DNA from: Lytechinus pictus
Taxonomy: Eukaryota
Assembly: GCF_037042905.1 (NCBI RefSeq)
Contig: NC_087250.1
Coordinates: 10,976,001 to 11,040,000 of the forward strand
DNA: 64,000 bases
Direction: 5' to 3'
Part shown: piece after piece, positions 6,001 to 64,000 of the stretch
How the letters are laid out: each line of letters starts with the position of its first letter
How positions within the stretch are numbered: position 1 is the first letter of the stretch
Notes under the pieces: model-generated
The model's input: the letters and a program-made list of their open reading frames with translations, nothing else
Told to the model about the DNA's origin: nothing
Database searches by the model: none
Position numbers and translations under genes: made by a program

Positions 6001-9000
6001 GAAACCTTTTCCACTGATATATTGAACACACAAAAATATATTTTGACATTTCTCTAAGGAATAGTGAACAAAGACCATTAAAATATAAATACATGAAGGT
6101 GTATACTTACCGTCTGTCAAATAACGTAAGGAAAAAGAGAAAGAATAACAAGAGATAAAAGCATTAAGGAATATTTTCGAATACACTCTTCGAAACGTGA
6201 TTGGAACTATTTGTATTGTTCAAAGAGGTTGGTCTGATTTGACATAAGTAGTTTTAGAGGATCGAAAAAAAGAATTATTTTATATTCATTACTCTAAAAT
6301 TTAATGGATTTTTTTTTTCGAACTTAGACTGCGGGTAAATCAAGGTGACCATACGTTGTATTGAACATATCTTACTTTATGAGGAAACCTTTTCCACTGA
6401 TATATTGAATACACAAAAATATATTTTGACATTTCTCTAAGGAATAGTGAACCAAGATCATTAAAATATAAATACATGAAGGTGTATACTTACGGCCTGT
6501 TAAATAAGTAAAAAGAGAGCGGATAACAAAAATATAAAAATATTGAGGAATATTTTAGAAAACGCTCTTCGAAACGTAATTGGAACTATTTGTATTGTTC
6601 AAAGAGGTCGGTGTGATTTCAAAAAAGTAATTTTAGAGGATTGAAAAATGGAATAATTTCATTGTCATTACCCTAAATATCAATGGATTTATTTCGTACT
6701 TATACTGTGGGTAAATCAAGGTGACCCTACGTTGTATTGAAAATATCTGATTTTTTGAAGAAAAATAATTTTCTATTGATATATTGGATGGACAAGAATC
6801 AATCTTATAGACATTCATCTAAATGATAGTCAAAAATGCTTTGAAATATAAATGTATGTGGTGTATACTTACTTTCTGCCAAATAAGATAAGGAAAAAAG
6901 AGGAAGAATAACAAAATATAGAAGCATTAAGAAAACTTTTCAAAAACGCTCTTCGAAACGGACTTGGAAATATTTGAATTGTTTAAGAGGTTGGCCTGAT
7001 TTCAAAAAATAATTTTAGAGGATTGAAAATTGGAATAATTTTATTGTCACTACCCTAAATATCAATGGATTTATTTCGTACTTATACTGTGGGTAAATCA
7101 AGGTGACCATACGTTGTATTGAAAATATCTGATTTCATGAAATAACTTTTCCATTGATATATTGAATAGACAAAAATATATTTTTACATTTCTCTAAGGA
7201 ATAGTGAACAAAGACCATTAAAATATAAATACATGAAGGTGTATACTTACCGTCTGTCAAATAACGTAAGGAAAAAGAGAAAGAATAACAAGAGATAAAA
7301 GCATTAAGGAATATTTTCGAATACACTCTTCGAAACGTGATTGGAACTATTTGTATTGTTCAAAGAGGTCGGTGTGATTTCAAAAAAGTAATTTTAGAGG
7401 ATTGAAAAATTGAATTATTTTATATTCATTACTCTAAAATTTAATGGATTTTTTTTTTCGAACTTAGACTGCGTGTAAATCAAGGTGACCATACGTTGTA
7501 TCGAACATATCTTACTTCATGAGGAAACCTTTTCCACTGATATATTGAATACACAAAAATATATTTTGACATTTCTCTAAGGAATAGTGAACAAAGACCA
7601 TTAAAATATAAATACATGAAGGTGTATACTTACCGTCTGTCAAATAACGTAAGGAAAAAGAGAAAGAATAACAAGAGATAAAAGCATTAAGGAATATTTT
7701 CGAATACACTCTTCGAAACGTGATTGGAACTATTTGTATTGTTCAAAGAGGTTGGTCTGATTTGACATAAGTAGTTTTAGAGGATCGAAAAAAAGAATTA
7801 TTTTATATTCATTACTCTAAAATTTAATGGATTTTTTTTTCGAACTTAGACTGCGGGTAAATCAAGGTGACCATACGTTGTATTGAACATATCTTACTTC
7901 ATGAGGAAACCTTTTCCACTGATATATTGAATACACAAAAATGTATTTTGACATTTCTCTAAGGAATAGTGAACCAAGATCATTAAAATATAAATACATG
8001 AAGGTGTATACTTACGGCCTGTTAAATAAGTAAAAAGAGAGCGGATAACAAAAATATAAAAATATTAAGGAATATTTTAGAAAACGCTCTTCGAAACGTA
8101 ATTGGAACTATTTGTATTGTTCAAAGAGGTCGGTGTGATTTCAAAAAAGTAATTTTAGAGGATTGAAAAATGGAATAATTTCATTGTCATTACCCTAAAT
8201 ATCAATGGATTTATTTCGTACTTATACTGTGGGTAAATCAAGGTGACCCTACGTTGTATTGAAAATATCTGATTTTTTGAAGAAAAATAATTTTCTATTG
8301 ATATATTGGATGGACAAGAATCAATCTTATAGACATTCATCTAAATGATAGTCAAAAATGCTTTGAAATATAAATGTATGTGGTGTATACTTACTTTCTG
8401 CCAAATAAGATAAGGAAAAAAGAGGAAGAATAACAAAATATAGAAGCATTAAGAAAACTTTTCAAAAACGCTCTTCGAAACGGACTTGGAAATATTTGAA
8501 TTGTTTAAGAGGTTGGCCTGATTTCAAAAAATAATTTTAGAGGATTGAAAATTGGAATAATTTTATTGTCACTACCCTAAATATCAATGGATTTATTTCG
8601 TACTTATACTGTGGGTAAATCAAGGTGACCATACGTTGTATTGAAAATATCTGATTTCATGAAATAACTTTTCCATTGATATATTGAATAGACAAAAATA
8701 TATTTTTACATTTCTCTAAGGAATAGTGAACAAAGACCATTAAAATATAAATACATGAAGGTGTATACTTACCGTCTGTCAAATAACGTAAGGAAAAAGA
8801 GAAAGAATAACAAGAGATAAAAGCATTAAGGAATATTTTCGAATACACTCTTCGAAACGTGATTGGAACTATTTGTATTGTTCAAAGAGGTCGGTGTGAT
8901 TTGAAAAAAGTAATTTTAGAGGATTGAAAAATTGAATTATTTTATTGTCATTACCCTAAATATCAATGGAATTTTTCTCGAACTGTGGGTTAATCAAAAA

Positions 9001-10846
9001 GGCCATGCGTTGTAATGAAAATATCTGATTTCATGAAAAAAACTTTTTCCATTGATATATTGGATAGACAAAAATCAAGCATATAGACATTCATCTAAAT
9101 GATAGTCAAAAATACTTCAAAAAATAAATGTATGTGATGTATACTTACGTTCTGCCAAATAAGGTAAGGAAAAAGAGAAAGAATAACAAAATGTAAAAAA
9201 TAAGGAATATTTTCGAAAACGCTCTTCGAAACGTACTTAGAACTATTTATATTGTTTTAGAGGTTGGCCTGATTTCAAAAAAGTAATTTTAGAGGATTGA
9301 AATATTGAATTATTTTATTGCCGTTACCCTAAATATCAATGGATTTATTTCGTGCTGATACTGTGGGTTAATCAAGATGACCATGCGTTGTAATGAAAAT
9401 ATCTGATTTCATGAAAAAAACTTTTTCCATTGATATATTGGATAGACAAAAATCAAGCATATAGACATTCATCTAAATGATAGTCAAAAATACTTCAAAA
9501 AATAAATGTATGTGATGTATACTTACGTTCTGCCAAATAAGGTAAGGAAAAAGAGAAAGAATAACAAAATATAAAAAATAAGGAATATTTTCGAAAACGC
9601 TCTTCGAAACGTACTTATTTATATTTATATTAACTATTTATATTGTTTTAGAGGTTGGCCTGATTTCAAAAAAAGTAATTTTAGAGGATTGAAAAATTGA
9701 ATTATTTGATTGTCATTATTCTAAATATAAATGGATTTTTTTCTCGTACTGTGGGTTTATCAAGATAACCATGCGTTGTAATGAAAATATCTGATTTCAT
9801 GAAAAACCTTTTCGATTGATATATTGGATAGACAAAATTCAAGCTTATAGACATTCATCTAAATGATAGTTAAAAATACTTTGAAATATAAATGTTTGTA
9901 GTGTATACTTAAGTTCTGCCAAATAAGATGAGGAAAAAGAGAAAGAATAACAAAATATAAAAAATAAGGAATATTTTAGAAAACGCTCTTCGAAACGTAC
10001 TTGGAACAATTCGTTTGGTTTTAGAGGTTGGTCTGATTTGACATAAGTAGTTTTAGAGGATCGAAAAATAAAATTATTTTACATTCATTACTCTAAAATT
10101 TCATTGATTTTTTTTCGAACTTAGACTGCGGGTAAATCAAGGTGACCATACGTTGTATTGAACATATCTAACTTCATGAGGAAACCTTTTCCACTGATAT
10201 ATTGAATGCACAAAAATATATTTTGACATTTTTCTAAGGAATAGTTAACAAAGATCATTAAAATATAAATACATGAAGGTGTATACTTACGGCCTGTTAA
10301 ATAGGAAAAAGAGAAAGGATAACCAAAATATGAAAATATTAAGGAATATTTTAGAAAACGCTTTTCGAAACGTAATAGGAACTATTTGTATTGTTCAAAG
10401 AGGTCGGTGTGATTTCAAAAAAGTAATTTTAGAGGATTGGAAAATTTGAATTATTTTATTGTCATTACCCTAAATATCAATGATTTTTTTCTCAAACTGT
10501 GGGTTAATCAAGATGACCATGCGTTGTAATGAAAATATCTGATTTCATGAAAAAACTTTTTCCATTGATGTATTTGATAGACAAAAATCAAGCATATAGA
10601 CATTCATCTAAATGATAGTCAAAAATACTTCAAAAAATAAATGTATGTGGTGTATACTTATGTTCTGCCAAATCAGGTAAGGAAAAAGAGAAAGAATAAC
10701 AAAATATAAAAAAATAAGGAATATTTTCGAAAACGCTCTTCGAAAGGTACTTAGAACTATTTATATTGTTTTAGAGGTTGGCCTGATTTCAAAAAAGTAA
10801 TTTTAGAGGATTGAAAAATTGAATTATTTTATTGTCATTACGCTTA
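1..10846. repeat. Tandem satellite DNA, ~380 bp AT-rich monomer, with a 4-monomer (~1523 bp) higher-order repeat in ~1300-8900
   Basis: Motifs GCTCTTCGAAACG/ACTCTTCGAAACG, TTTTAGAGGAT and GGGTAAATCAAGGTGACC recur every ~380 bp. Near-identical spurious ORFs recur at 1681/3204/4727/6633/8155 (spacings 1523, 1523, 1906, 1522). The array runs off the left edge of the window. Confidence 0.98.
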
Positions 10847-26578: not shown

Positions 26579-27894
26579 TGGTATTTTCTTCAGGACTCGA
26601 GCTACAGATAAGATATAAAATATGCTTTTACTAAGTATTTTGATACACGAGAAAGAGAATTAATTGATCTGGAAATCAGGATTACTCTTTGTATGAATAT
26701 TTATCGGTTTATTGCCATTTCGTCTACTGCCTTTTTCCCACTATCGCATGGTCTGATATCATTTCGTTTACCATTAGTTAGTCAACTATCAACAAAGTCC
26801 AATAACCATTTCGTCTAATTACCATCTCGTCTAATAGCCAGTTGGTCTAGTAGCCGTTTTGTCAATTATCATTTAGTCTAATTGTATTTTTTTCAATTGG
26901 TCCAATTTCCACTTTGTCCAATATCATTATATACGTCTATCACCTTTTGGCCTAATAGCCAATTGGTCTAATAACCACTTGGTCTACTCTCATTTCATTC
27001 ATGTTCCATTTGGTCCAACTTAAGTTGGTTGACTATCACTTTGTCGAAACCCATTCCGGCAAACAATCATTTGGTATCGTTGCCATGGTCCAATCACCAA
27101 TAGGTCCTATTTCCGGTATTTTTTTCGGTATACTGACGGATGGTCTATTATCACTAAGTCTAATCATCAGATTGGCTAACAACATTCGTGATAAACCCAC
27201 TTAGTCCTATTCTCTTTTGGTCCAATGACCACTTGGTCTAATAGCCAATTGGTCTAATGACCACTTGATCTAATAGCCACTTGGTCTTATTCCCAGTTGG
27301 ACTAATTGCCACTTGGTCTAATTTTCATTTGGTCTAATTGCCATTTCGTCTAATGTATTTTATTGTCACTTGGTCTAATACCAGTTCGTCTAATAGTCGG
27401 ATGGTCTAATACCAGTTGGTCTAATCCTCACTTGGTCCATTATTCATTCTGTCTATATTCAGTTGGTCGAATGTGCAGTTGGTCTTATTTCCATTTCGGC
27501 CAATTTCCACTTGATCTAATTTCCAGAAAGTCTAACATTCATTTTGTCTACATGTCACTTGGTATAATATGTAAAGTTTGCATGGTAACTTGTTTTAATT
27601 TTTCTGGTGAAATTTTTAAAGTTACTTTCCGCGCGCCGGCTTCGAATATTCAACCGTGTGCCTCTCGATATTTGAGTACATTTAGAGTGACTATATTTCC
27701 ATCCCCAATTTTTTTTAAATATGAGGACTTTCAAAAGCCTGTGGAGATGAATGCTTCATATTCCAGTCCAAAAAGGGGTAAATTTAAGCACTTTTACAAG
27801 CGCTATGCATGAAAATTCTGAAGTGGATGTGGATGAGAGCGTGAAGCGCGAGCGAAAATTTTAGCCTATATACATGTAGTACATGGTGTTTTTT

Positions 27895-44845: not shown

Positions 44846-47800
44846 GCCATAGAGTTGGTAGTATTGATAATAATATTGTAACAATAATACGGCAGTGTGA
44901 TAATGATAATGGAATATAAAAATAAATAGCCCAAGATCTACACTTTGAAGCATCAAACAAACTGTTCGGTTCATTCGCCTTGAAAGGAGGTTGGTATTTG
45001 GAATTAGGTTTGTATGGAATGGTTGTCGATGTTTGGGAGAGCTTTTGAGTTTTAAATTTCGAGAAAACACAGTAAAAGTCAATTTACCACGCACACGCCC
45101 GGATGTAATAATGCGAGCTAGCTTGGAACTCCCACCTCAATCTGGATAGTATCATTACCTATACTTTGCGATATTGTTGCTTTCTTTTGGAAGGGGCAAG
45201 TTCAAGGGGTTCGGCGAGCAGTGATTGGGTTTTTACATAGCGCTTTGTCAATCTTAAACACAATGAAACCTTACAATTCATGGTTAAAGAATAATAGTAA
45301 ATGAGCCTTCATTGCCTGTGAGTAGTTGGAACTGAGATGATATCGACTATATCATGAATGGCAACAATTGTAATAATAATTTTGTTAGTAATGATGATAG
45401 CGGTAAATAAAAATAATGGTGAACTAAATTTCCGGAAGGGGTCAAGTGGAAATTAGTGGATAGAGATAGGCGGGCATGGGCTGTATTTGGATGTGGTTGA
45501 GCTCTGTTAAGCATGTTAAGCTTCGGTCATAATTTCCATGTGTTGCGTTTTTCAATACAATATATGCAAATGAAGTAAGCCATTTAGTCCAAGTGTACAT
45601 GTAGATGAACGGGTAAAGCTGGAAATAAAGTCGTAAATGTTTTATGTGATAAAATGGGGTGGTATTTACCCAACTGTAGTAGTTTGGATAATTGGGTTTC
45701 ATGGGAGGATGGCAGTGTATTTTTATTCAGATGATGTTACGCAGATACCCATCCATGGTTTATATCAAAAGAAAGCTACTGATTCCTCACTCAGCACGTT
45801 TCATAAATATACATGTGGCTGCCTTTTGGAATTGATCAATGAGGGGAATATGGGTGATTAGTGGCTGGATGGATGCAACCAAAAAAGATAAGAATAATAA
45901 TAATGGAAAAAAGGGAACATAAATAAATAAAACAAAATGCGTCTGCAATTTGGCTTAATTATTTCTGTAGTTTTAGAGGTTGTAAAACAGTGTATGAATA
46001 TTGTTGATAATAATACTCTTCTGCTACAACTATTAGTTAAAATAAATTGATTAACAAGCCAAAATAAATGAAGAAAAAAAAATAAATAAAGGCTGAAAAA
46101 AAAAACAATATTCATAAATTTGATAACTGGAAAACATAGATAAAAATTCAGGAGCTACGTCCATGAGAAGAGCAATTAGATCTTAATTGCCCTTAAATAG
46201 GCATGCTTCTCCTGGTGAAAGTTCTGGATGTTAATGGAATGTGTATAGCTTACATGTACTCACTGGACAAGACTTAAATGAATAAGAGAGCTCTATGAGT
46301 CCCAGGATTGGCGAGTGCGACTCCTTTAGTTGATTTGGGAACAGCAAAGGAAAAACACTGGACATGCAGGCATGGCAGGGAAGTGTTGTTTAATTACACA
46401 ACCCATGATATGGCACTCATCATACTATTATAATGGTTTCTCATATTTATATTGGTTCATTATCCAGTCGACCAAACGGTACCTTCGGCTCATACCGAAG
46501 AGAAAACACAAGACAGAACATTAACCTTTATTGAACGAATGAATAACACTGACAAATAAATTCCATAATTGAATCAATAGCAAGGAGTGATTGATGGTTA
46601 GCAACTGGCATTAAGCCGAACCGACATCAGGAAGTTCCAGATTTGAATTTAGTTTTAATTGTTATACAATGCAATCACATCTGTCATATTGGCATGGACA
46701 GACACTCGCACCTGATTGGACATGGGTAATGGCAAAAATAAACTTGGAGGTTAGCTAATAAACATATAACCCCCTGCATTCTTTCTGCCCAATTGAAAGA
46801 TATAGGCCTACACAAACAGTGCCTATCCAATGTTTCTTTTCAAGTACGAGTGTTGCTCTGGTCAGTACTTAATTATAGCATAGTTCGATGTGTGCAACTG
46901 AGTAAATCAACGAATTGGCAAAAACGATGCTTATTATTCTGGGTGTTGTTTTGGGGTGTTTGTTTTGGGGGTGTTTTTAAGTACTTGGCAATTTCATTAT
47001 CATTTATAGAAGTATGCAGGGAAGGAATGACCGAGACGGAAAGGCCAAGATTATCGGATATTTGGTAGGGGGATCCTCGTCCCAGGAAACTGGGACACTG
47101 GGTGGAGCCACCATCCTCCCAGCTGGTGACATGACTCGTGACCCGGCTCTCCCTATGTGGTTATTTCTTAGCCTTACTCTTTCCTTCCTCTGCAGGCATT
47201 GAAATTTATTGACATTACTGCGATACACATGTTTGTGAAGCGTTGGTGTAATAATAATTGGTTGATATTACTGTGATACAAAATTATGTGAAATATTGGG
47301 GTAACAATTCCCGATCGGAAATTAAAGTTGAGAAAATGGCAATATCTGGTATATCGTGTCGTATTTCTTCTCACAATATGTTTATTCGATTATCGAATAA
47401 ATTATATTAGGAGAGAATACATAGTTTTATAATGTAAACAAATACTGACTGTGTTACGATACTGCAACAAATAACAATTGAATTTAGTTTTAAATTGGAT
47501 TTTCTTTCCTTTTATTACAGGAAATATATGGATCACTAAACAAAACAAATAAATATTTATCTTACATCTCATTAATTAAATAAATAAGTGAGACAACCAA
47601 AGTCTGCTGCGATGATTATACTAGCCTGGTACCGCCCTACTGGCTCTAGCATGTATTTGTCTGATCTTGTTGAAAATGTGCTATCCAAGTTGGATGATGA
47701 ATCTAATTATATTATCCTAATAGGAGACTTAAATTGTGATCTATTAGCTTTCCCTCCCAGTTGCTATTCAAAGAGACTAAATGAACTGTCGAACTGTCAA

Positions 47801-49597
47801 ATAATTCAGACACCAACACGAGTTGATCAAAAGTCTCAAACTCTCATTGATGTTATTTTTATTTCCAATACTTCTAAAAAAGAAGAGAGTGGCGTTATAC
47901 ACACCGGGATTAGTGACCATTCACTTGTTTTTGCTTTATTTGGTAAAAGGCGGTTTAATAAATGTCATCATGCGTACAAGGTGTTCAGGGATTATAAAAG
48001 ATTAAATGGCGACGCATTTCGTGAAGAAGTAGGTAATACTAATTATAACGATGTGTACAGTTCTTCAACGGTTGATGAGTCTGCCAATTCTTTTATAAAT
48101 TCTTTTTCGTTATCATGTAATAAATTTGCCCCATTAAGAAAAAAGAAGATAAAAAGGGACAGACTTCCATGATTGATGCAGATATTCTGGCAATGATTCG
48201 TAAAAGAGACAGCATGAAAATAAAAGCAGTTAAAGATAATCAGGATGAAGATTGGAAAGCATATAAGAAAATGAGGAATTCTGTAACAACAAAACTGAAG
48301 TACAAGAAAAAGATTTACTTTCAAACAAAAATCGAGACTTCGAAAGGCAATGTAACAGAAACATGGAAAAATCTGAATATGCTATTGAATAAAAACAATA
48401 AATCAAATGAAATACCGTTCATAAAATGTAATGATATGGATATTCATGATCCTATTCTGATTGCCGAAAAATTGAAAGAACATTTTGTTAATATAGGACC
48501 CCAGTTAGCAAAGTCAATTATAGAGCCCACAGTTAAATCCGATCTTACGTATTCTTTCCATTATTTGCCTCAAAATGCACAGTTTCATTTCACACTGGTA
48601 AATGAAAGTGAGGTGTATAGGTATATCTTGAATTTACCAAATGATAAAGCTATGGGGTGCGATTTGTTACCCGCCAAACTGATCAAATTAGTTGCCGAAT
48701 GTATCACTCGGCCCTTAACACATATAAGAAACTCGTCTTTTATATTCGGTGAAGTTCCTGAAATGTGGAAAAATGCCATCGTGACTGCATTACACAAATG
48801 AGGCTCTAATGAACTTAATAATTTTAGACCGATTTCTATTTTACCGATCTTTTAAAAAAACTTAGTAAGAATAGTTTTTAACCAATTGTACAATTACTTT
48901 AATTCTCATCATCTCTTGAATGCTTCCCAATCAGGCTTTAGGTCCCTTCATTCAACCATGACAACACTGCTTTCAATCACCGATGATTGGTTTTATGAAT
49001 TTGATAATATCTTTTAGCGAAAGTATTTCGTTAACAAGCGGTTATCCAGAGTCTAGACATCAAGGGCGTAGTTGGAAATCTCCCCGCCTGGCGATCTTGG
49101 CGCGGACAGGTGGTCCAATTTAACGACTTTGTTGACGAGAAATTATCGGCGGGGAGATTTCGCTCCTACCTCCTCACTTTTCTTCGTGGTGTTCAGAGTA
49201 GCGGGTCGTATTATTTTCTATCGCTTGTTTGATTACTTCCAATTTCTACAAATTTTCTTGTTTTGAAGTTACAATTATTACTTTTTTCTTGTTTTGAAGT
49301 TACAGTTTCTTTGGACGCTTTGCAGGAATTAGAGTCTCTTTACTCGTCGTGTGTTTATACTCCTTGCGATATTACGACCTGCCTGGTGTTAATAATACAT
49401 TCTAACTTTTGACAATTATTTTGAATTCGTTGAATTTACTTCAGTACACCATCCCCCTATTTTGGCAATTATTGAAGTAGTTGAATTTACCACAGTTTAT
49501 CTGCCTCCTGTCTGCCTGTTTTCTGTGCTCGGATTCTAATTTACGCTAACTTTTAGCGGCCTCTGTCTTTCCGCGTCATCTTTTGGAGTAGTTGAAA

Positions 49598-50654
49598 ATG
49601 CCGAAAGTCAAACAGGGAAGGAAAAATGCTATCAAGTCTGCAACGCCTCGTCGCACGCGGAAGGCTGGGATTGGGAGTGCATCGTCCACCTCGGTCGTCG
49701 AAGAGGACGTCGCTGGAGCTGGAGCCGGCACGGGGCATAGAAACGGTGAGTCTGTTACTGTAGGGGCTCCCTGGCCCATAGTCACCCCTCCCGGCGCTGC
49801 GCATAGTTCCGAGGCAACCCATGAAATTCAGGCGTTTTCACATCCCCCTGATACTCCGGTTACCCTCCCCATTTACGATGGTTCAGGCATTACCCCCTCC
49901 GACACAGCCGGCTATGCTGAGCTGCGTGTGCGATGAGCTGGGTAGTGAGGTTCCTGTTGGGATTAAAGAAAAGATTTGGAGTGGTGAATACTTTGATCTC
50001 GGTTTGCTGCTAAAAAGGGACGGCGCGCAGGTAGATTCCGCTCAATCATTCAGCCTCTGTGCTACGGGGGCTGCAGTAGTTTTGCGGCCACAGAGCAAGC
50101 CGCCTGTGCTGTCTAATATTGAACAGTGGACATCAGCTTTTCTGATATTCGCGTCGATATATCTAGAGCGTCATCCAACCCGGGCTCGGGAATTATTGAA
50201 ATACATGGACATCGTACGTTCCATTGTTAGGTATGGGGGGTTCAATTGGCGGTCTTATGATGCGCAATTTCGCCTCCGTCAGGCGCGTCAGCCTTTTAGA
50301 TCATGTGCGTCAATCGACTCCGAACTATGGCTGACAATCGCAACAGCGAGCCACGGTTTTCAATATCCCGCCTCGTCATCCCTCGCCTCTAGGAGTCAGC
50401 CTTTTCGTCCATACGGGCGGGGAGCAAGCCGCACGCCCCCGTCTCGGCAGTATGGTTCGAACCGCGTCGGCAGCCCCCGACCTCCACTGCTCTGTTTCGC
50501 ATTCAATGACACCGGGTCATGCAGCCGAGTTAACTGCCGTTTTCTGCACAGATGCAGAAACTGTTCCGCGACCTCCCATGGCGCCCACGCCTGCGTCAAA
50601 CCCACCACCGCTGCCGCCAGTAGCAAACGGGTGCCCGGCCCAAACACCAATTAA
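49598..50654 (+). CDS. Gag-like ORF1 with a Cys/His-rich C-terminus, apparently split by one frameshift near 49800-49930
   Basis: MPKVKQ start in one frame. KEKIWSGEYFDL, IEQWTSAF, WRSYDAQFR and CFAFN..C..C..H.C..C..H..C lie in a second frame, typical of DIRS/Ngaro ORF1. Confidence 0.8.
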
Positions 50655-52218
50655 TTTGAAACGCATGCTTCCTTTTCTGAATAAGTACGCCAGACGCGAT
50701 GATGCCGCGCAACTTATTTCTGGGTTCCGATTTGGGTTCTCTCTTGGTTTTACCGGGATCCGTCACCCTGTTTCTTCACGAAATCTTAAATCGGCAGGGG
50801 AGCTGAAGGATATTTTAAAGGATAAGATTAAAAAAGAAATTGGCCTGGGTAGAATTGCTGGTCCTTTCCAATATCCTCCCTTTCCGAATTTTCGCTGCTC
50901 CCCTATAGGGCTTGTTCCCAAGCGTTCCCCGGGGGAATTTCGCCTTATTCAACATCTCTCAGCTCCTCGAGGTCATTCGGTCAATGAGTTTATTGACCCA
51001 GATCTATGCTCCGTATCATACACTTCGTTCGATGAAGCTGTTAATCTTGTTTCAAACCTCGGTCGAGGTGCATTTATGGGCAAGGCAGATATCAAATCCG
51101 CATTTCGCCTACTGCCGGTCCACCCTTCTGATTTTGAACTCCTCGGTTTCTGCGTAGACGGTGAATATTTTTATGACAAATGTTTGCCTATGGGTTGCGC
51201 TATATCATGTGCGCACTTTGAACGGTTTAGCACTTTTCTCGAGTCTTGTTGTCGCAGACTAGCTAATACTGACCGCATTCTGCATTATCTAGACGATTTC
51301 TTCTTCGCCGGCGCTTCGCGCGAGGAGTGTGAATCGTATATGAGGCATTTGTTGGCTATGTGCGAGGCTTTTGGAGTCCCTATTGCAAGCGAGAAAACGG
51401 AAGGGCCCGTTTCTTCTATCAATTTTTTGGGTTTAGAGATTGATGCGATAGCTCTGAAGGTTCGCGTTCCAAGTCAGAAAATCGAATCCCTGCAGACAGT
51501 GTTGTATCACTGCGAAACGCAACAGAAGTTGACATTGAGACAAGTGCAATCGCTTATCGGCAGCCTTAATTTTGTGTGTAAAGCTGTTGCTCAAGGTAGG
51601 GCATTTCTTAGGCGTCTCATCGATTTGACACGAGGTGTCCGCCGTCCGGATCACCGAATTCGCATAACAAAAGGGGCAAGAGCTGATTTACAGGCGTGGG
51701 CTTTGTTTTTATCCGAGTTTAATGGCACCGTCATGTTTTCTCATCCAAACTGGCGCTCAAATACCGAATTTCAGTTTTTCACCGATGCAGCGGCTAGCAT
51801 TGGTTTTGGCATTTTCTTTCAGAACAACTGGGCTCAGGGACGCTGGCCTGCAGCGATTTTGGATGCTAGTTTTTCCATTGCCTTCTTAGAGCTATTTCCG
51901 ATTGTGGTGGGTATCCGGCTATGGGGGGCGCGCTTAGCCAACAACCGGGTTCTTTTCTGGTCGGATAACCAAACCGTTGTGCATGTTGTTAATTCGCAAA
52001 CATCTAAGTGCAAACACATCATGAAGCTAGTTAGGATGTTGGTAGGGCTTTGCTTGAAATACAACATTCTTTTTAGGGCGCGTTACGTGCCTGGCTCTTC
52101 CAACGAAATAGCTGACTCCCTCTCTCGTTTTCAGATGGAAAGGTTTCGGCAGCTGGCACCGGGCGCCGATCAGCGGGGATGCGTCATACCCATCCATCTG
52201 TGGCGGACCTTTTTGTAG
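50452..52218 (+). CDS. Reverse transcriptase plus RNase H (open ORF)
   Basis: Motifs SPIGLVPK, FRLIQHLS, DIKSAFR, LPMG, YLDDF, FLG, TDAA, ELFPI, SDN and NEIADSLSR. Confidence 0.95.
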   Translation: MVRTASAAPDLHCSVSHSMTPGHAAELTAVFCTDAETVPRPPMAPTPASNPPPLPPVANGCPAQTPINLKRMLPFLNKYARRDDAAQLISGFRFGFSLGFTGIRHPVSSRNLKSAGELKDILKDKIKKEIGLGRIAGPFQYPPFPNFRCSPIGLVPKRSPGEFRLIQHLSAPRGHSVNEFIDPDLCSVSYTSFDEAVNLVSNLGRGAFMGKADIKSAFRLLPVHPSDFELLGFCVDGEYFYDKCLPMGCAISCAHFERFSTFLESCCRRLANTDRILHYLDDFFFAGASREECESYMRHLLAMCEAFGVPIASEKTEGPVSSINFLGLEIDAIALKVRVPSQKIESLQTVLYHCETQQKLTLRQVQSLIGSLNFVCKAVAQGRAFLRRLIDLTRGVRRPDHRIRITKGARADLQAWALFLSEFNGTVMFSHPNWRSNTEFQFFTDAAASIGFGIFFQNNWAQGRWPAAILDASFSIAFLELFPIVVGIRLWGARLANNRVLFWSDNQTVVHVVNSQTSKCKHIMKLVRMLVGLCLKYNILFRARYVPGSSNEIADSLSRFQMERFRQLAPGADQRGCVIPIHLWRTFL

Positions 52219-53155
52219 AGAGGAATCGCCTCATGCTGGCTTCTCGAGCGCAGAACACTAATTCTACCTATAGGAAGGCTTGGGACGCATTCGAGCAATT
52301 TCGGTTGCGATATCACTACGATATAAATATCGAACCAGACGTTGAACAGGTGGCTCAGTTTATTTCTTTTCTTTCATGGCATGGTTATGCGGGGTCAACC
52401 ATAAGTACTTACATATCGGGGTTAGCTTTTGGGATGCAGGCTTCGGGTTGGCCTGACACGACCGGTTGTTTCATCATTCGTCGTTTGGTGGATGGATGTC
52501 GGCGCAAATTTGCCCAGCATGATACTCGGTGCCCTATAACTTTCCCCATTCTGAAATCGTTGATTCATTCCATCTCTCATGTTTGTCCAAATTCTTACAA
52601 TCAGGCACTTTTTCGAGCCGCTTTTCTAATGGCGTTTTTTGGCTTTCTCCGGGTGGGCGAGTTTACAGCTCAATCTAAACGGGGCCCCTTTTCTTTGTTG
52701 GAAAACGATGTTTGCATACGGGGGGAGGGTCCTAGCAGAAAACTGGAAGTTATAATCCGGAGGTCGAAGGCGGATCAAACAGGGCGAGGGTGTTGCATTA
52801 TTATTCCCACATATAATTCATCTCCAATGTGTCCTGTTCAGGCTGTAGATAATTACTTGTCCATTCGTTCTAGTAGTCAGGGTGCAGTGAGAGGAATGAA
52901 CTCGCCTTTTTCCGGCACTTTAGCACTCAGCCGTTAACGAGGCATGAATTTGGTAAAATATTAAAACAGGCGATATCTTTCCTCAACTTACCGGTGGAGT
53001 TTTATTCCTCTCACTCGTTTCGTATCGGGGCGGCAACAACTGCTGCAATGGCAGGGATCCCTGACGTTTGTATTCAAAATATGGGGCGCTGGGCTTCCCA
53101 TTCCCATCGGCTTTACATCCGGGCCAATCCTGCCTTGCTTGCCGATAGTATGTGA
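52179..53155 (+). CDS. Tyrosine recombinase with a single frameshift in a T5 run at ~52907-52911
   Basis: FFGFLRVGE, RSKADQ and MCPV lie in the track frame. A shifted frame continues FRHFSTQPLTR...HSFRIGAAT...MGRWAS..LYIR to TGA at 53153-55, completing the R-H-R-W-Y catalytic set. Confidence 0.9.
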
Positions 53156-54528
53156 ACAGTGGCGGTAACTTGACTAGTTAATTCAAAGGTCGCGCTTCTT
53201 GGTTTTCGGGTTCCCCCTTTCTTTCTAGTAATCTAATTTGGCATATTATGTTGCTTTAGTCAGGAGCTGGTATTATTCAGCGGCAAGTTTAATGGTTTGT
53301 TTCTTATAGTTAGGCAGCTCGAAATATGTAGTGAAGAAGGGAATGCTTCATTCGTTTAATTTAAATGTGGTCGGGTAATTTCTATTTTTTAATAACAAGG
53401 GTAGTGAGTGACGGTATGAAGATCCCTGTTAATGAGCATGCCTGTAATTTAGTGATGCAGGTTATTTCTGTGTATATACTGGAAGGAGGGTTATTCACTA
53501 GTTGTATTTGATACTGTTTTCAATGCTTTAGGGCGGGTTTCCCGCTCGCTTATCAATGCATTAGTTGGCACTGAATACAGAATGGGCGTTGAATTCAGTG
53601 GCAATATACTACAGTGCCTACGAAATATGTATTGTTATGATGTGTTATGTAACATGTTTTGGGGCCGTCAGGCTCCAAAGTTGTAGTTCGCCTTGCTGCT
53701 TGTCTTTTTTTTTTTTATCTCCATCTACAGCTGATATGATTCCGCTTGGTTGGAACCCATTCAACAATTGGTTTGGGAGGAGCCTGCTTACTCTCGATCT
53801 ACGTGCCACGCGTCCAAGCTATTTTCTTCTCGAACTGAGTCTTTAAACGAACTTGAAGGGGGCACCAGTCGACTATACCTCATCCTTTGTTTACCCGCGA
53901 TCTACTTTCGAGATAACATGAGACATGAACTAGTTTGTGGGTCAGACCTGCCACGCGTTAACACGTGGCCTTTCCTTCAGAGCGAGCCATACCCCTCCCC
54001 CTCCCCCCACTGCCCATTCGGCCATTAATGTTTGACCTTTGCTGCTCCTTGGACATTTTACGACTCTATTTTTCCCCTCGTCCAGCCAAGAGTATTTCGG
54101 TTCTTCCCTCATTCAGCTTGTTATGTCCCCGTTTGGATTTCATGGATGGACCACAGAAGTCGCGAGTTCACGTTTCCCCCCCCCCCCACCCCCATCTCCT
54201 TCCATACCCATCTCAGACCTTCTTCTTTTGTATTTAACCATTTTGAGATGTTATATGTGTTATTAGAAGTTTTAGGTTATTGAGTTTCGCTCTTGCGCGA
54301 AGCAGAATGTGTTGTGGCGGCGGGATGTCCATCCGGGCAAGATATACCCATGCTTTCCATCCCGTTTGGCGAAATTGCATTTTTGCCACACCACATTCAT
54401 TTGTACAGTAATCTACTTTATCAGTATATACAAATAAATGTATAACGAGAGGCTTCCTGAGAGGTTTATTACGATTCGCAAAAGAATAATTATTATTAGC
54501 GCCCACGTTAATTGGCCTGGTGGGCTAC

Positions 54529-54798
54529 GGCAAGCTGAGAAATCTTGTCGTAGAAAGGCCTGTGGATGGATTTATATGTATTTTTCCCTACTTTGGCCAC
54601 GTGGCAAGCTGGGAAATCTTGGCACGAAATTTAAGTAGGAAGGGCAAGCTGTGAAATCTTGCCATGGTTTTGGGTAAGCTGAGAAATCTTACCATTAATT
54701 ATTGAACTTGGCAAGCTGTGAAATCTTGCCTTGATTGCGGGTAAGCTAAGAAATCTTACCATTAAAATATTGAACTTGGCAAGCTGTGAAATCTTGCT
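54529..54798 (+). repeat. Array of seven 21-nt palindromic units GGYAAG-CTRNGAAAT-CTTRCC
   Basis: Units start at 54529, 54603, 54643, 54673, 54710, 54740 and 54778. Confidence 0.92.
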
Positions 54799-55673
54799 AT
54801 GTTCGTGATTTTCTGAATTTGGATTATTTTTATTCCCACCTATATTGGTTGAGTTATATATACAGTATCGAAAATCATTAGTAACCTCAGGAGGCCTCCA
54901 CTTCTATTTCTTTATGTAAAACAACATATGATACTATTATGACTTTTGTTGATGATTTGATAATATGAATACGGCGATGCTACTCGGTTAATTATTAAAC
55001 CACGAAATACCGCATATAACTGTGTTTGTATCTTTGTTGTGTCTGGACTTGGATAACGGGAATGTTGTATGTGCTGTAATGCTTGATCTGCGCAAAGCGT
55101 TTGATACTGTAAGTCACGAATTGTTAATCGACAAACTATTTCAGTATGGTCTGGATGGAATGTCAATAAACTGGTTCACGAATTATTTAAAAGGGAGAGG
55201 GCAGGTTACAAGAGTCAGTGGCCATATATCTCAAACTCGCCTTATCCTAGGTGGTATTCCCCAAGGGTCAATATTGGGACCCCTACTTTTTATCATATTT
55301 GTTAATGATCTACCGTCCATTTTAAAACATTGTAAAGTTAGCTTGTATGCAGATGATACGATGATTTATTGCTCAGGCAAAAGTCCCACTGAAATATGTT
55401 TTAAGATTAATGAAGATCTAGAAAACATAAGAAAATGGCTGATTAAAAATAAACTACATTTAAACATCGATAAAACCGAGTACATTGTACTAGGTACCAA
55501 ACAAAGGCTCTGTAAAATTAAAAATGCTATATTTCAGATACATATTGATAATACTCCATTGCGTAAGGTAGATGAATGTAAATATTTAGGTGTTATCCTT
55601 GATTCTAATTTAACATGGCAAAACCATATTGATTATGTTCAGAAGAAAGTAAATGGTGGTTTATTCATGTTAA

Positions 55674-56070
55674 AGAGAAATGCCAGTAGTTGCAGTAAAC
55701 ACTGATTTCATGAGAAAGTCTGTAAATCCAGGCTTAACTGTCAGAATATCATCGAGGATCTAGATCTGGTACAGTTACGTAAACTTAACTTTGTGAAATC
55801 TTGAAATCTACGCTGAAAAATGTTCACACTGAAGATCACCAACACAGATAGGCACACGTGGGGGGACAGTGTATTAATATTGCTGGAATAAAGACCCGAC
55901 GGAAGTGACCGAATCCGCGCTTATTTTGCTTATTTCTCAGCAATTACACAATTTCTTCCAGAATCCTTTGGCACATATTTTTTTTTCATACAAACAGACA
56001 CTTGGGTGGTCATTTTATTAGATTCTGTAAAAAGTCATTTTGAGATCGTTACCAAAACTGGAATTTATCT
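55674..56070. mobile_element. TTAA-flanked MITE (Kolobok-like, 397 bp)
   Basis: TTAA at 55670-73 and 56071-74. TIR AGAGAAATGCCAG / CTGGAATTTATCT. Removal restores the LINE frame GGLFMLKSIKNFV...HFNYCDAVWG. Confidence 0.88.
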
Positions 56071-62893: not shown

Positions 62894-63660
62894 TCAGTAA
62901 CGAGTGTGACCACCTCCTGCAGCAATAACGGCTTCACAGCGCTGTCTCATGGAGCTGATGAGGCGATTGATGTCTCTGACGTCCAGTGCATCCCATGCAG
63001 CCTCCAGAGCCACACCAAGCTGCTGCAGTCCAAGTGGATGGGCTTCGAGCTGCTCGAGACTCCTCCCCATCATGTCCCAGACGTGCTCTATCAGGTTTAA
63101 GTCCGGGGACCTCGCTGGCCACTCCATACGCTCAATCCCCTGGCCCTCAAGGAACTCGGTCACCACCCTAGCTCGGTGGGCACGGGCATTGTCATCCATG
63201 AAAATGATGTTTTGTCCCACATTTTCTGCAAATGGCACCACTATAGGTTCAAGGACCTCATCCCTGTACCTCACTCCTGTCATTGCTCCCCCTGGGACCA
63301 CGTAGAGACGAGTACGGTTGGCGTAGGTGATGCCTCCCCACACCATGACGCTGCCTCCCCCATAACGGTCATGTTCTGCAATACAGGGGTCTGCAAATCT
63401 CTCTCCTGGTCGCCTCCAGACTCTCGAACGTCCATCATTGTGGTCAAGGGAAAATCTGCTCTCATCTGTGAACAGAACTCTACGCCATTGCTGTCTGGTC
63501 CATCTGACATGCTCCCGGGCCCAGTTGAGACGAATTCTTCTGTGAGCAGGGGTGAGTGGGACACACTGAGCTGGCCGTCTGGCATGCATATTGGCTCTGT
63601 GAAGTCGGTTACGGATTGTTTGAGTGGAAACAATCACTCCAGTTGCTGCAGCGAAGTCAT
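62894..63660 (-). pseudogene. Tc1 transposase, C-terminal DDE domain, N-terminally truncated
   Basis: Motifs VLFTDESRF, VMVWGGI, FMDDNARAH, WPARSPDLNLIEHVW and GGHTRY*. The first HTH region is missing. Confidence 0.93.
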
Positions 63661-64000
63661 ATGCCAAGACACCACCTAAGTGAAACAGATGTAGCCAGAG
63701 CCCTAGGGATGCTGGAAGCTGGCCTCAGTCAGCGAAGAGTAGCCAGAATGATGGGCGTGTAACACAGTGTCATTAGCAGAGCAAATCAAAGACACCGAGA
63801 GACAGGGCTATACTCCGAGAGACCCCGCAGTGGCCGACCAGTTTCGACAACCCCTAGAGATGATCGCTACTTGACGAATCTCAACCTCCGCAACCGCTTT
63901 CACAGTGCACGCCGCCTCAACAATGACTTCGCTGCAGCAACTGGAGTGATTGTTTCCACTCAAACAATCCGTAACCGACTTCACAGAGCCAATATGCATG
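63661..64000 (+). pseudogene. Tc1 transposase N-terminal paired-like HTH region with an in-frame stop
   Basis: MPRHHLSETDVARALGMLEAGLSQRRVARMMGV*HSVISR...RSGRP..TTPRDDRYL...VSTQTIRNRLH, with TAA at 63760-62. Confidence 0.9.

What the first reader, a model, noticed from the sequence alone, without database searches (positions are those of the whole stretch)
54529..54798. Seven covarying 21-nt hairpins in the 3' non-coding region of a YR retrotransposon
Seen: seven units GGYAAG-(9 nt)-CTTRCC separated by 9-53 nt. The stem covaries: GGCAAG/CTTGCC in units 3 and 5, GGTAAG/CTTACC in units 4 and 6. The changes in units 1 and 7 are G-U compatible, and only unit 2 has a true mismatch. The loop CT(G/A)NGAAAT is near-invariant. 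Units 3-4, 5-6 and 7 look like a ~67-bp dimer repeat, so the covariation may stem from one event. Established: tyrosine recombinases bind inverted half-sites around a short spacer, and retroelement RNAs use stem-loops for packaging or priming. Inference: this is a functional cis array (Gag-binding RNA hairpins or recombinase sites) that I do not recognise from canonical DIRS/Ngaro structure.
Basis: partly seen in the sequence, partly recalled or inferred. Interest (0 to 1): 0.8.

Follow-up and report, generated by a model that had tools for sequence, protein, structure and literature searches.

The report
Hairpin array in Ngaro retrotransposon tail
Seven small hairpin-forming repeats sit in the terminal repeat of a sea-urchin tyrosine-recombinase retrotransposon and are probably a signal read on the element's own RNA, in a class of mobile elements whose packaging and priming signals are still unknown.

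Summary
Seven GGYAAG-N9-CTTRCC units lie at 54529-54798, far more clustered than chance gives.

The host element is a 6049-bp Ngaro-like tyrosine-recombinase (YR) retrotransposon at 49003-55051, with gag, RT/RNase H and YR. It is nested in a LINE of a Lytechinus-like sea urchin, with GATAA at both ends.

Contigs from other copies join 55051 to 49003 and 49255 to 54394. The array therefore lies inside the "B" split direct repeat, 253-522 bp upstream of the B|A crossover.

The array is family-wide and is not an independent minisatellite. The piece that carries it is among the least diverged parts of the element.

Pairing support is real but thin. Five of 10 pairs change on both sides, a level reached by 6 of 500 shuffles, and most core deviations are G·U on the sense strand.

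Distant Ngaro relatives carry unrelated hairpin-bearing tandem arrays in their non-coding parts, though not all do.

Best reading (0.4): sense-strand RNA hairpins bound by element proteins. The rivals are a U3-like enhancer, a neutral palindromic minisatellite, and YR accessory sites. The units are not the crossover site.

The parts
49003..55051 (+). Ngaro-like tyrosine-recombinase retrotransposon, 6049 bp, nested in a LINE reverse-transcriptase gene. This copy has the form A1-internal-B1.
   Evidence: An empty-site joint 49002->55052 (skips 6049, 5 letters shared) appears in one DNA contig of run X3 and in 6 RNA reads of run X24. Gag, RT and YR frames are shown.
49003..49007 (.). GATAA, the left copy of the 5-bp direct repeat at the insertion. 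The right copy is at 55052-55056.
   Evidence: One search reports 'both = 5' at the empty-site joint and at the B->A joint. The sequence is read.
55052..55056 (.). GATAA, the right copy. It is target-derived or the shared crossover core.
49003..49255 (+). Inferred 'A' split direct repeat (5' end of the element). It contains a perfect 14-bp inverted repeat, 49075-49088 / 49148-49161, that includes the GAAATCT motif.
   Evidence: Joints 55051->49003 (X3; X7 contig of 898 nt) and 49255->54394 (X1). The inverted repeat is read directly.
49598..50654 (+). Gag-like ORF1, in two frames in this copy (49598-49936 and 49782-50654). It has an N-terminal Arg/Lys-rich stretch and C-terminal CCCH-CCHC-type zinc knuckles.
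   Evidence: Weak zf-CCCH hit, E 0.054.
50335..52218 (+). RT/RNase H open frame of 627 aa.
   Evidence: Pfam RVT_1 at 4.3e-15. It is 92% identical to an uncharacterised Lytechinus variegatus protein.
52116..53155 (+). Tyrosine recombinase, broken into two overlapping frames in this copy (52116-52937 and 52877-53155).
   Evidence: PF00589 at E 3.1e-5 on the second piece, below the gathering score. HSFR and GRW...Y motifs are read. Relatives have the same gene after RT.
54394..55051 (+). Inferred 'B' split direct repeat, which carries the array.
   Evidence: Joints. Depth is higher here than in the unique tail (X1: 373-500 against 69-286).
54529..54798 (+). Array of seven 21-nt hairpin units. 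Each has a 6-bp stem and the 9-nt loop CT(G/A)NGAAAT. Units start at 54529, 54603, 54643, 54673, 54710, 54740 and 54778.
54839..54862 (+). CC(A/T)6GG-like box CCTATATTGG (54839-54848) and TATA-like TATATATA (54855-54862), 41-57 nt after the last unit.
   Evidence: Read directly. Their function is not tested.
54994..55046 (+). ATTAAA (54994-54999) followed by a GT-rich stretch (55021-55046), a candidate polyadenylation signal near the end of B. An AATAAA also lies at 54433-54438.
   Evidence: Read directly. Five RNA fragments end at 54453, which is weak evidence.

Best explanation
The array is a cis-acting set of small stem-loops formed by the sense-strand RNA of a sea-urchin Ngaro retrotransposon (possibly also by plus-strand DNA). 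It lies in the B terminal repeat, so a full-length transcript would carry it a few hundred nucleotides from its 3' end.

Each unit presents the same purine-rich loop (CU-R-N-GAAAU) on a 6-10-bp stem. The predicted form is a 6-bp stem, a C·U mismatch, a U-A pair and a G-N-G-A-A pentaloop. The proposed mechanism is that several copies of an element protein bind the loops. The most likely candidate is Gag, which has an N-terminal Arg/Lys-rich stretch and CCCH/CCHC zinc knuckles. RT is the alternative. Binding would mark the genomic RNA for packaging and/or position reverse transcription.

Shown: the units, their pairing potential, their place in the terminal repeat, their presence in other copies, and the nucleic-acid-binding features of Gag. 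Inferred: that the structure forms in RNA, that a protein reads it, and what it is for.
For: (1) Pairing. In the 7-unit alignment with a 10-bp helix, 80% of cells pair. Five of 10 pairs change on both sides, against a shuffled mean of 2.4, and 6 of 500 shuffles reach 5. The covariation score is 0.30 against 0.18 (8 of 500). Sliding the partner by 1-3 columns drops pairing to 33-50%.

(2) Strand. Two of the three core-stem deviations are G·U on the + (sense) strand and would be A·C on the other strand.

(3) Loop and stem conserved while spacers are not. CT and GAAAT of the loop and 10 of 12 stem positions are invariant in all 7 units, yet the spacers around units 1, 2 and 3 cannot be aligned with one another.

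(4) Family-wide and conserved. A 377-nt contig of depth 359 covers 54439-54820 with 9 substitutions and 5 gap letters (2.4%). Other pieces of the tail show 9.5% (53532-54089) and 13% (52986-53257), and coding pieces show 2-7%.

(5) Each unit folds alone at -5.3 to -11.7 kcal/mol. The z-score is -4.4 and -3.05 for units 1 and 2, and -1.3 to -2.4 for the other five.

(6) Recurrence with unrelated sequences. Tandem units with a perfect stem of 6 bp or more occur in the non-coding parts of 7 of 30 distant relatives' contigs (L040, L041, L046, L048, L083, L085, L086). L043 adds a stem of about 14 bp. The same test finds none among the 12 other tandem arrays of this window. In L041 and L046, 93.6% of cells pair and all four varying pairs vary through G·U on the sense strand.

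(7) Gag of this element and of 10 relatives starts with an Arg/Lys-rich stretch, and all but one (L047, whose basic run lies some 19 residues in) right after the Met. All of them end in Cys/His knuckles.

(8) The primer for cDNA synthesis in DIRS-1 is unknown, and a 3' hairpin has been proposed for it (passages of PMC7192593).
Against: The covariation rests on few events. The C-G/T-A change in the core is one event copied by the 67-bp dimer duplication. The outer four pairs hold in only 3-5 of 7 units.

The seven units are paralogues, so shuffle controls overstate significance.

The whole-array fold is only modestly better than shuffles (z -2.4 on +, -3.4 on -), so the fold gives no strand preference.

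Copy number varies between copies (joints 54731->54668, 54732->54776, 54463->54646), as in a plain minisatellite.

Among the closest relatives available (RT about 49% identical), L037, L039 and L081 have no hairpin-bearing array in the DNA held, and two of them have no array at all.

No TSS or poly(A) site is mapped. Five RNA fragments begin at 54830 and five end at 54453. If those are real transcript ends, the array lies outside the RNA.

RNA reads cover the array at only about 6x in each orientation, like the rest of the element, and give no strand.
Confidence: 0.4

Rival explanations
1. Neutral palindromic minisatellite. A short palindrome in the terminal repeat was amplified by slippage or by reverse-transcriptase template switching, both of which hairpins promote. 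Arm-to-arm templated correction (quasi-palindrome repair) keeps the arms complementary without any selected function.
For: The array contains a 67-bp dimer repeated 2.4 times. The number of units varies among copies (joints 54731->54668, 54732->54776, 54797->54776). Relatives carry tandem arrays of unrelated sequence, many without hairpins: 17 of 30 contigs have some array, and 7 have a perfect stem of 6 bp or more. That pattern suggests fast turnover. Symmetric changes in short palindromes can arise mechanistically (established knowledge, recalled).
Against: The 21-nt core is 90-95% identical between units 1, 2 and 3, while their spacers share nothing. A neutral array should decay evenly. The array-bearing piece is among the least diverged parts of the element between copies (2.4% against 9-13% in the rest of the tail). 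The invariant loop is not explained by arm-to-arm correction.
Confidence: 0.25
2. U3-like enhancer. The units are double-stranded DNA binding sites for a host transcription factor, repeated upstream of the element's core promoter in the terminal repeat. This is how tandem repeats work in the U3 of retroviral and LTR-retrotransposon LTRs.
For: The array ends 41 nt before a CC(A/T)6GG-like box (54839-54848) and 57 nt before a TATA-like box (54855-54862). ATTAAA plus a GT-rich tract follow at 54994-55046. Five RNA fragments begin at 54830, just after the array, and five end at 54453, just before it and 15 nt after AATAAA. The array lies in the terminal repeat, where retroelements keep promoters. 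L040, L094, L087 and L088 also carry tandem arrays inside their long direct repeats.
Against: A promoter in B would face A2-B2, not the coding region, in the canonical A1-[ORFs]-B1A2B2 layout. It would drive the genes only from a circle or a tandem copy. A dimeric DNA-binding factor does not require compensatory changes in the two half-sites, nor G·U-type deviations. Support for the transcript ends is 5 molecules each. The motif names are recalled and were matched to no library.
Confidence: 0.2
3. Accessory binding sites for the element's tyrosine recombinase, on double-stranded DNA or on hairpins folded in the single-stranded cDNA. They would help assemble the recombination complex at the nearby B|A junction, in the manner of arm-type sites of phage attP or the folded attC/CTX-phage sites used by bacterial YRs.
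For: The array lies 253-522 bp from the crossover at the B|A junction. The 7-mer GAAATCT of the units also occurs on the other side of the junction in A, at 49075, with its complement at 49155, as the arms of a 14-bp inverted repeat. It occurs only 4 more times outside the element in the window, counting both strands. DIRS-1 has single-stranded cDNA intermediates (PMC7192593, passages read).
Against: The units themselves are not the crossover site. The junction sequence around GATAA shows no convincing likeness to a unit. The YR is of ordinary size, and no extra arm-binding domain was detected. The motif link to A was noticed after the fact.
Confidence: 0.1

Closest known systems
Ngaro superfamily of the DIRS order (YR retrotransposons with split direct repeats A1-[ORFs]-B1A2B2)
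   Same: The gene order is gag, RT/RNase H, YR, with no methyltransferase. B->A and A->B joints are seen in other copies. Ngaro elements are reported from sea urchin (PMC4157794, passages read).
   Different: The papers read say nothing of a hairpin-repeat array in the B repeat. The window copy lacks A2-B2.
3' hairpin of DIRS-1 mRNA, proposed as a self-primer for reverse transcription (Poulter and Goodwin, as cited in PMC7192593)
   Same: A hairpin near the 3' end of a YR-retrotransposon transcript, in a class whose cDNA primer is unknown.
   Different: That case is a single hairpin at the very end. Here there are seven units, 253-522 nt from the element's end, with a conserved loop. Neither case has been tested.
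Tandem enhancer repeats in the U3 of retroviral and LTR-retrotransposon LTRs (recalled, not tested here)
   Same: Short tandem repeats inside the terminal repeat, just upstream of a TATA-like box.
   Different: The units are palindromes with stems that change on both sides. No transcription start is mapped. The split-repeat layout puts B downstream of the genes.
Protein-hairpin recognition systems such as phage lambda N-boxB or MS2 coat-operator (recalled; a comparison of mechanism only)
   Same: A small stem with a conserved purine-rich loop. An Arg-rich peptide is present at the Gag N-terminus. Multiple sites lie on one RNA.
   Different: There is no homology and no binding data. The predicted pentaloop is only a ViennaRNA minimum-free-energy call.
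Folded single-strand sites of bacterial YRs (integron attC, CTX phage attP; recalled)
   Same: A YR enzyme together with structure-defined, sequence-variable hairpins. The DIRS order has single-stranded cDNA intermediates.
   Different: The crossover here is at GATAA in the B|A junction, not in a hairpin. There are no cassettes between the units.
Hairpin runs in tails of Naegleria YR retrotransposons
   Same: Short hairpin-forming repeats in the non-coding tail of split-direct-repeat YR elements.
   Different: A different kingdom and different sequences. Those are unchecked AI notes that I did not re-examine.

Membership tests
Ngaro superfamily (DIRS order) | Reverse transcriptase domain | tested here: met
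   PF00078 at E 4.3e-15 on 50335-52218. 1428 homologues, the best at 92% identity to a Lytechinus variegatus protein.
Ngaro superfamily (DIRS order) | RNase H after RT | tested here: inconclusive
   Only a weak RVT_3 hit (E 0.033) on 51700-52218. The C-terminal 150 residues are conserved across 23 relatives.
Ngaro superfamily (DIRS order) | Tyrosine recombinase instead of a DDE integrase | tested here: met
   PF00589 at E 3.1e-5 (24.2 bits, below the 27.1 cut-off) on 52877-53155. HSFR and GRW...Y motifs are read. The homologous gene follows RT in 9 relatives.
Ngaro superfamily (DIRS order) | No methyltransferase domain (this separates Ngaro from DIRS1-like and PAT-like elements) | tested here: met
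   The RT/RNase H frame ends at 52218 and the YR frame starts at 52116, leaving no room for one. No MT family appears in the Pfam scans.
Ngaro superfamily (DIRS order) | Split direct repeats A1-[ORFs]-B1A2B2, with the internal repeats after the YR | tested here: inconclusive
   The window copy has no internal repeat. Other copies show joints B-end->A-start (X3; X7 contig with 644 and 253 nt on the two sides) and A-end->B-start (one X1 contig, 'between: not known'). These fit B1A2B2 or solo AB, but tandem copies or circles would also give the first joint.
Ngaro superfamily (DIRS order) | Gag-like ORF1 | tested here: met
   The ORF at 49598-50654 matches ORF1 of 12 relatives by tblastn at E 1e-20 to 1e-35. 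Zinc knuckles are seen.
YR core recombination site (inverted arms around the crossover spacer) | Strand exchange takes place inside the unit | tested here: not met
   The empty-site and circle/B-A joints place the crossover in GATAA at 55052/49003, 253 bp from the nearest unit.
Any curated RNA family (Rfam 15) | Match to a covariance model | tested here: not met
   0 matches at E <= 1 in 48800-55300, both strands.
Independent genomic minisatellite | The array occurs away from the element, or at far higher copy number than its flanks | tested here: not met
   Depth in the array bin is like that of the neighbouring B bins: X1 472 against 373 and 500; X3 716 against 391 and 641. There is no other copy in the window. 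The 36 pattern hits in metagenome and viral collections each hold a single unit.
U3-type enhancer repeats | Lies upstream of the transcription start and raises transcription | not testable with these tools
   The only evidence is sequence boxes read by eye and 5 fragment starts at 54830.

The most novel reading that the evidence does not exclude
Arrays of short stem-loops in the terminal repeats are a general, repeatedly re-invented cis signal of split-direct-repeat YR retrotransposons, seen in sea urchin, in other invertebrate hosts and, by earlier notes, in Naegleria. They would form a multi-site landing pad on the genomic RNA (or on the single-stranded cDNA) for the Arg-rich N-terminus and zinc knuckles of Gag. 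That would define which RNA is packaged and where reverse transcription starts. This would be the first packaging or priming signal named for the DIRS order.
Probability: 0.15. Interest if true: 0.7.

Novelty: new variant of a known kind. Interest (0 to 1): 0.45.

Why it matters
Tyrosine-recombinase retrotransposons are widespread in eukaryotes, but their cis-acting signals are essentially unmapped. For DIRS-1 the primer of cDNA synthesis is still unknown (PMC7192593).

This array is a compact, repeated and conserved stem-loop motif. It sits in the terminal repeat of a young Ngaro family whose other copies include some with no stop inside the matched RT stretch. The host is a sea urchin, where reporter injection and RNA work are routine. 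That gives a concrete candidate to test for Gag, RT or YR binding and for promoter activity.

If the array proves to be only a palindromic minisatellite, it still documents how hairpins seed tandem repeats in retroelement tails.

Tried and rejected
- Whole genome of the window: none is held, so other copies could not be fetched as sequence.
- Pattern scan GGYAAGCTNNGAAATCTTRCC: 34 loci in metagenome contigs and 2 in viral contigs, each with a single unit and no array.
- RT relatives in viral contigs: none.
- Rfam: no match.
- Earlier notes of this scan, by place and by sequence: nothing.
- Protein search with the 90-aa frame that runs through units 3-7 on the minus strand, hoping to catch called ORFs on other copies: no candidate.
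- Sequencing runs: no RNA holder is listed. All holders have small shares of 0.13-0.16. The strand of the RNA reads in X24 could not be read; the orientation ratios flip between bins.
- tRNA primer-binding idea for TGGCGCGG... in A: there is no tRNA gene in the window and no shared TGG-motif upstream of gag in 23 relatives. Dropped.
- Likeness between the B|A junction and a unit ('ACTTGG' and 'ATCTT' are shared, but with different spacing): judged coincidental. It was compared by eye only.
- Naming a transcription factor for the loop or arms: only recalled consensus sequences were available and no library to test them. Not pursued.
- Covariation in the homologous arrays of L041 and L046: none on both sides.
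- timed out. It was rerun with fewer shuffles, which uses mononucleotide shuffles, so its z-scores are rough.

Full report
**Observation.**
They match GGYAAG-N9-CTTRCC on the + strand at 54529, 54603, 54643, 54673, 54710, 54740 and 54778.
- Four units are exact and three have one mismatch.
- With up to two mismatches the window holds 12 matches, against 3.75 expected (largest shuffle 10; 0 of 100 shuffles reach 12). The other five matches have two mismatches each and are scattered.
- TRF reports the 67-bp dimer at 54643-54801, with 2.4 copies and 90% matches.
- In the aligned units CT and GAAAT of the loop are invariant, and so are ten of the twelve stem positions.
- Each unit folds alone as a 6-10-bp stem at -5.3 to -11.7 kcal/mol. 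Six of the seven have the predicted form: stem, C·U mismatch, U-A pair, G-N-G-A-A pentaloop.

**Context.**
The array belongs to a tyrosine-recombinase retrotransposon.
- A gag-like frame runs 49598-50654, in two frames in this copy.
- A 627-aa RT/RNase H frame runs 50335-52218 (PF00078, 4.3e-15).
- A YR runs 52116-53155, in two overlapping frames. PF00589 scores 3.1e-5 on the C-terminal piece, and HSFR and GRW...Y motifs are visible.
- There is no room for a methyltransferase between RT/RNase H and YR.
- The RT frame is 92% identical to an uncharacterised protein of Lytechinus variegatus. Its family reaches other echinoids, Xenopus, a lizard, and host-derived contigs in symbiont MAGs. The host is therefore a sea urchin of or near Lytechinus.
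- The element interrupts a LINE reverse-transcriptase gene at 48124-49017 / 54992-55705.

**Boundaries and terminal repeats.**
No genome is held for the window. I therefore laid contigs of two DNA runs, contigs of one probable RNA run, and raw reads of one RNA run on 48900-55200.
- One DNA contig and six RNA reads join 49002 directly to 55052, with five letters fitting both sides. This is the empty LINE site. The insertion is 49003-55051 (6049 bp), with GATAA at both ends.
- Contigs in X3 and X7 join 55051 back to 49003. The X7 contig has 644 nt on one side and 253 nt on the other.
- One X1 contig joins 49255 to 54394. The tool marks the letters between as not known.
- Together these fit the Ngaro layout A1-[ORFs]-B1A2B2 or solo AB units (PMC9210276, PMC4157794 and PMC8547959; passages, and section 11 of PMC8547959). 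On this reading A = 49003-49255 and B = 54394-55051.
- Tandem copies or circles would also give the first joint, so I treat the split repeat as likely, not proven.
- The window copy itself is A1-internal-B1 only.
- The array therefore lies inside B, 253-522 bp upstream of the B|A junction where this copy recombined. The hairpin units are not the crossover site.

**Is the array private, or a free minisatellite?**
Neither.
- A 377-nt contig of depth 359 covers 54439-54820 with only 9 substitutions and 5 gap letters.
- Depth in the array bin matches the neighbouring B bins: X1 472 against 373 and 500; X3 716 against 391 and 641. It exceeds the unique tail (X1 69-286).
- The window holds no second copy.
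- A pattern scan of metagenome and viral collections gave 36 loci with one unit each, which is chance level.
- Unit number does vary among copies (joints 54731->54668, 54732->54776 and 54463->54646).
- By the listed contig pieces, the array-bearing piece differs from the window by 2.4%. Other tail pieces differ by 9.5% and 13%, and coding pieces by 2-7%. These pieces come from different copies, so the comparison is rough.

**Pairing evidence.**
On the seven units with a 10-bp helix:
- 80% of cells pair.
- Five pairs change on both sides, against a shuffled mean of 2.4 (6 of 500 shuffles reach 5).
- The covariation score is 0.30 against 0.18 (8 of 500).
- Sliding the partner by one to three columns drops pairing to 33-50%.

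Caveats and further points:
- The core has one double change (C-G to T-A), which the dimer duplication copied.
- The other four double changes are in the outer pairs, which hold in 3-5 of 7 units. Units 1 and 2 extend their stems by 4 and 3 pairs of different sequence.
- Two of the three core deviations are G·U on the sense strand.
- The units are paralogues, so these controls overstate significance.
- The core of units 1-3 is 90-95% identical while their spacers cannot be aligned. That is hard to square with neutral decay.
- Whole-array folds are modest: z -2.4 on +, -3.4 on -.

**Relatives.**
Sea-urchin relatives could not be fetched. I obtained 30 whole contigs with distant relatives (RT 37-50% identical where measured), which are host contamination in MAGs. 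Most show gag, RT and YR in that order; in about a third one gene was not matched or the contig ends first.
- 17 of the 30 have at least one tandem array (period 15-200).
- Seven have an array whose unit holds a perfect stem of 6 bp or more with a 3-12-nt loop: L040, L041, L046, L048, L083, L085 and L086. The L040 case, and one of the two in L048, are trivial or low-complexity.
- L043 adds a 112-bp unit with a stem of about 14 bp.
- L041 (51 bp x 5.2) and L046 (43 bp x 5.7) carry homologous arrays directly after the YR stop codon. In them 93.6% of cells pair, no pair changes on both sides, and four pairs vary only through G·U on the sense strand.
- L048 has an 84-bp x 2 array about 1.1 kb after the YR, a relative position like that of the array studied here.
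- In L040, L094, L087 and L088 the tandem arrays lie inside long direct repeats.
- The same stem test on the 12 other tandem arrays of this window gives at most 5 bp. Three rows returned no stem at all, which may be a script quirk.
- Against a conserved feature: of L037, L039 and L081, which are among the closest relatives fetched, L037 and L081 have no array and L039 has only a short one without a hairpin, in the DNA held.
- The picture is recurrence of hairpin-bearing repeats in Ngaro non-coding regions, not conservation of one motif. The threshold was chosen after seeing the data.
- Two earlier notes of this scan describe hairpin runs in tails of Naegleria YR elements. I did not re-check them.

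**Mechanism.**
I favour sense-strand RNA hairpins read by an element protein (0.4).
- The pattern of invariant loop, covarying stem, G·U tolerance on the sense strand and free spacers is that of protein-bound RNA stem-loops.
- Gag of this element and of ten relatives has an Arg/Lys-rich stretch at or near its N-terminus and ends in Cys/His knuckles (weak zf-CCCH hit).
- ATTAAA with a GT-rich tract at 54994-55046 would end a transcript about 30 nt before the end of B. That places the array 220-490 nt from the RNA 3' end. These boxes were read by eye and are not tested.
- For DIRS-1 the cDNA primer is unknown, and a 3' hairpin has been suggested (PMC7192593, passages).

**Rivals.**
- *Neutral palindromic minisatellite with arm-to-arm correction (0.25).* It fits the copy-number variation and the turnover among relatives. 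It does not fit the conserved loop or the core-against-spacer contrast.
- *U3-like enhancer (0.2).* It fits the CC(A/T)6GG-like and TATA-like boxes 41-57 nt downstream. It also fits the five RNA fragments that begin at 54830 and the five that end at 54453, 15 nt after AATAAA. It does not fit the split-repeat geometry or the compensatory changes.
- *YR accessory sites (0.1).* It fits the nearness to the junction and the GAAATCT copies in A. There is no direct support.

**Literature.**
Four full-text searches, a fifth broader search, and passages of six papers show no description of such an array in Ngaro elements. [quoted passage not shown] Prior mention cannot be excluded.

**Verdict.**
This is a real, family-wide and probably constrained hairpin-repeat array in the B terminal repeat of a sea-urchin Ngaro element. 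The element is a member of a known kind. The array is an undescribed variant feature and a testable candidate cis signal. Interest 0.45.

Noticed in passing
49075-49088 and 49148-49161: A perfect 14-bp GC-rich inverted repeat (GAAATCTCCCCGCC / GGCGGGGAGATTTC) with a 59-nt loop lies in the A repeat / 5' leader. Its arms carry the same GAAATCT 7-mer as every hairpin unit. That 7-mer occurs only 4 times elsewhere in the window outside the element, counting both strands.
   Followed up: partly
49003-49007 and 55052-55056: The insertion is flanked by GATAA on both sides, and the empty site has one copy. This is longer than the trinucleotide reported for DIRS-type junctions in the passages of PMC7192593.
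   Followed up: partly
47588-49017 and 54992-55705: The Ngaro element is nested in a LINE: an endonuclease domain at 47588-48172 and RT pieces on either side of the insertion. The uninterrupted LINE form is present at high depth in run X3 and in RNA reads.
   Followed up: partly
near 49893, 50602 and 52882: The window copy differs from most other copies by small indels at these places. Gag and YR are each split into two frames here, so this copy looks defective, while the family includes copies with no stop inside the matched RT stretch.
   Followed up: partly
54176-54193: RNA reads carry long C-runs as loose ends on both sides of this stretch. It is probably a length-variable homopolymer in the tail.
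   Followed up: no
62894-63724 (-): A Tc1/mariner-type transposase frame of 276 aa, with DDE_3 at 8.8e-19 and HTH_Tnp_Tc3_2 at 2.1e-15.
   Followed up: no
1-10000: A long stretch of 27-29% G+C with a steady positive GC skew (0.15-0.19) and positive AT skew, unlike the rest of the window.
   Followed up: no
27217-27437: A 32-bp x 7.2 tandem array whose unit holds a 5-bp hairpin, TGGTC-TAAT-GACCA. It is unrelated to the Ngaro element.
   Followed up: no
L097 3483-4351 and 4622-5490 (oriented contig): Two identical 869-bp direct repeats 270 bp apart lie just after the YR of a distant relative. This is a clean B1-A2-B2-like layout.
   Followed up: no
L044 4283-4482: A 39/100-bp tandem repeat in the tail of a relative carries the palindrome TTGGC-N4-GCCAA. 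Units 5 and 7 of the array studied here also begin with TTGGC.
   Followed up: no
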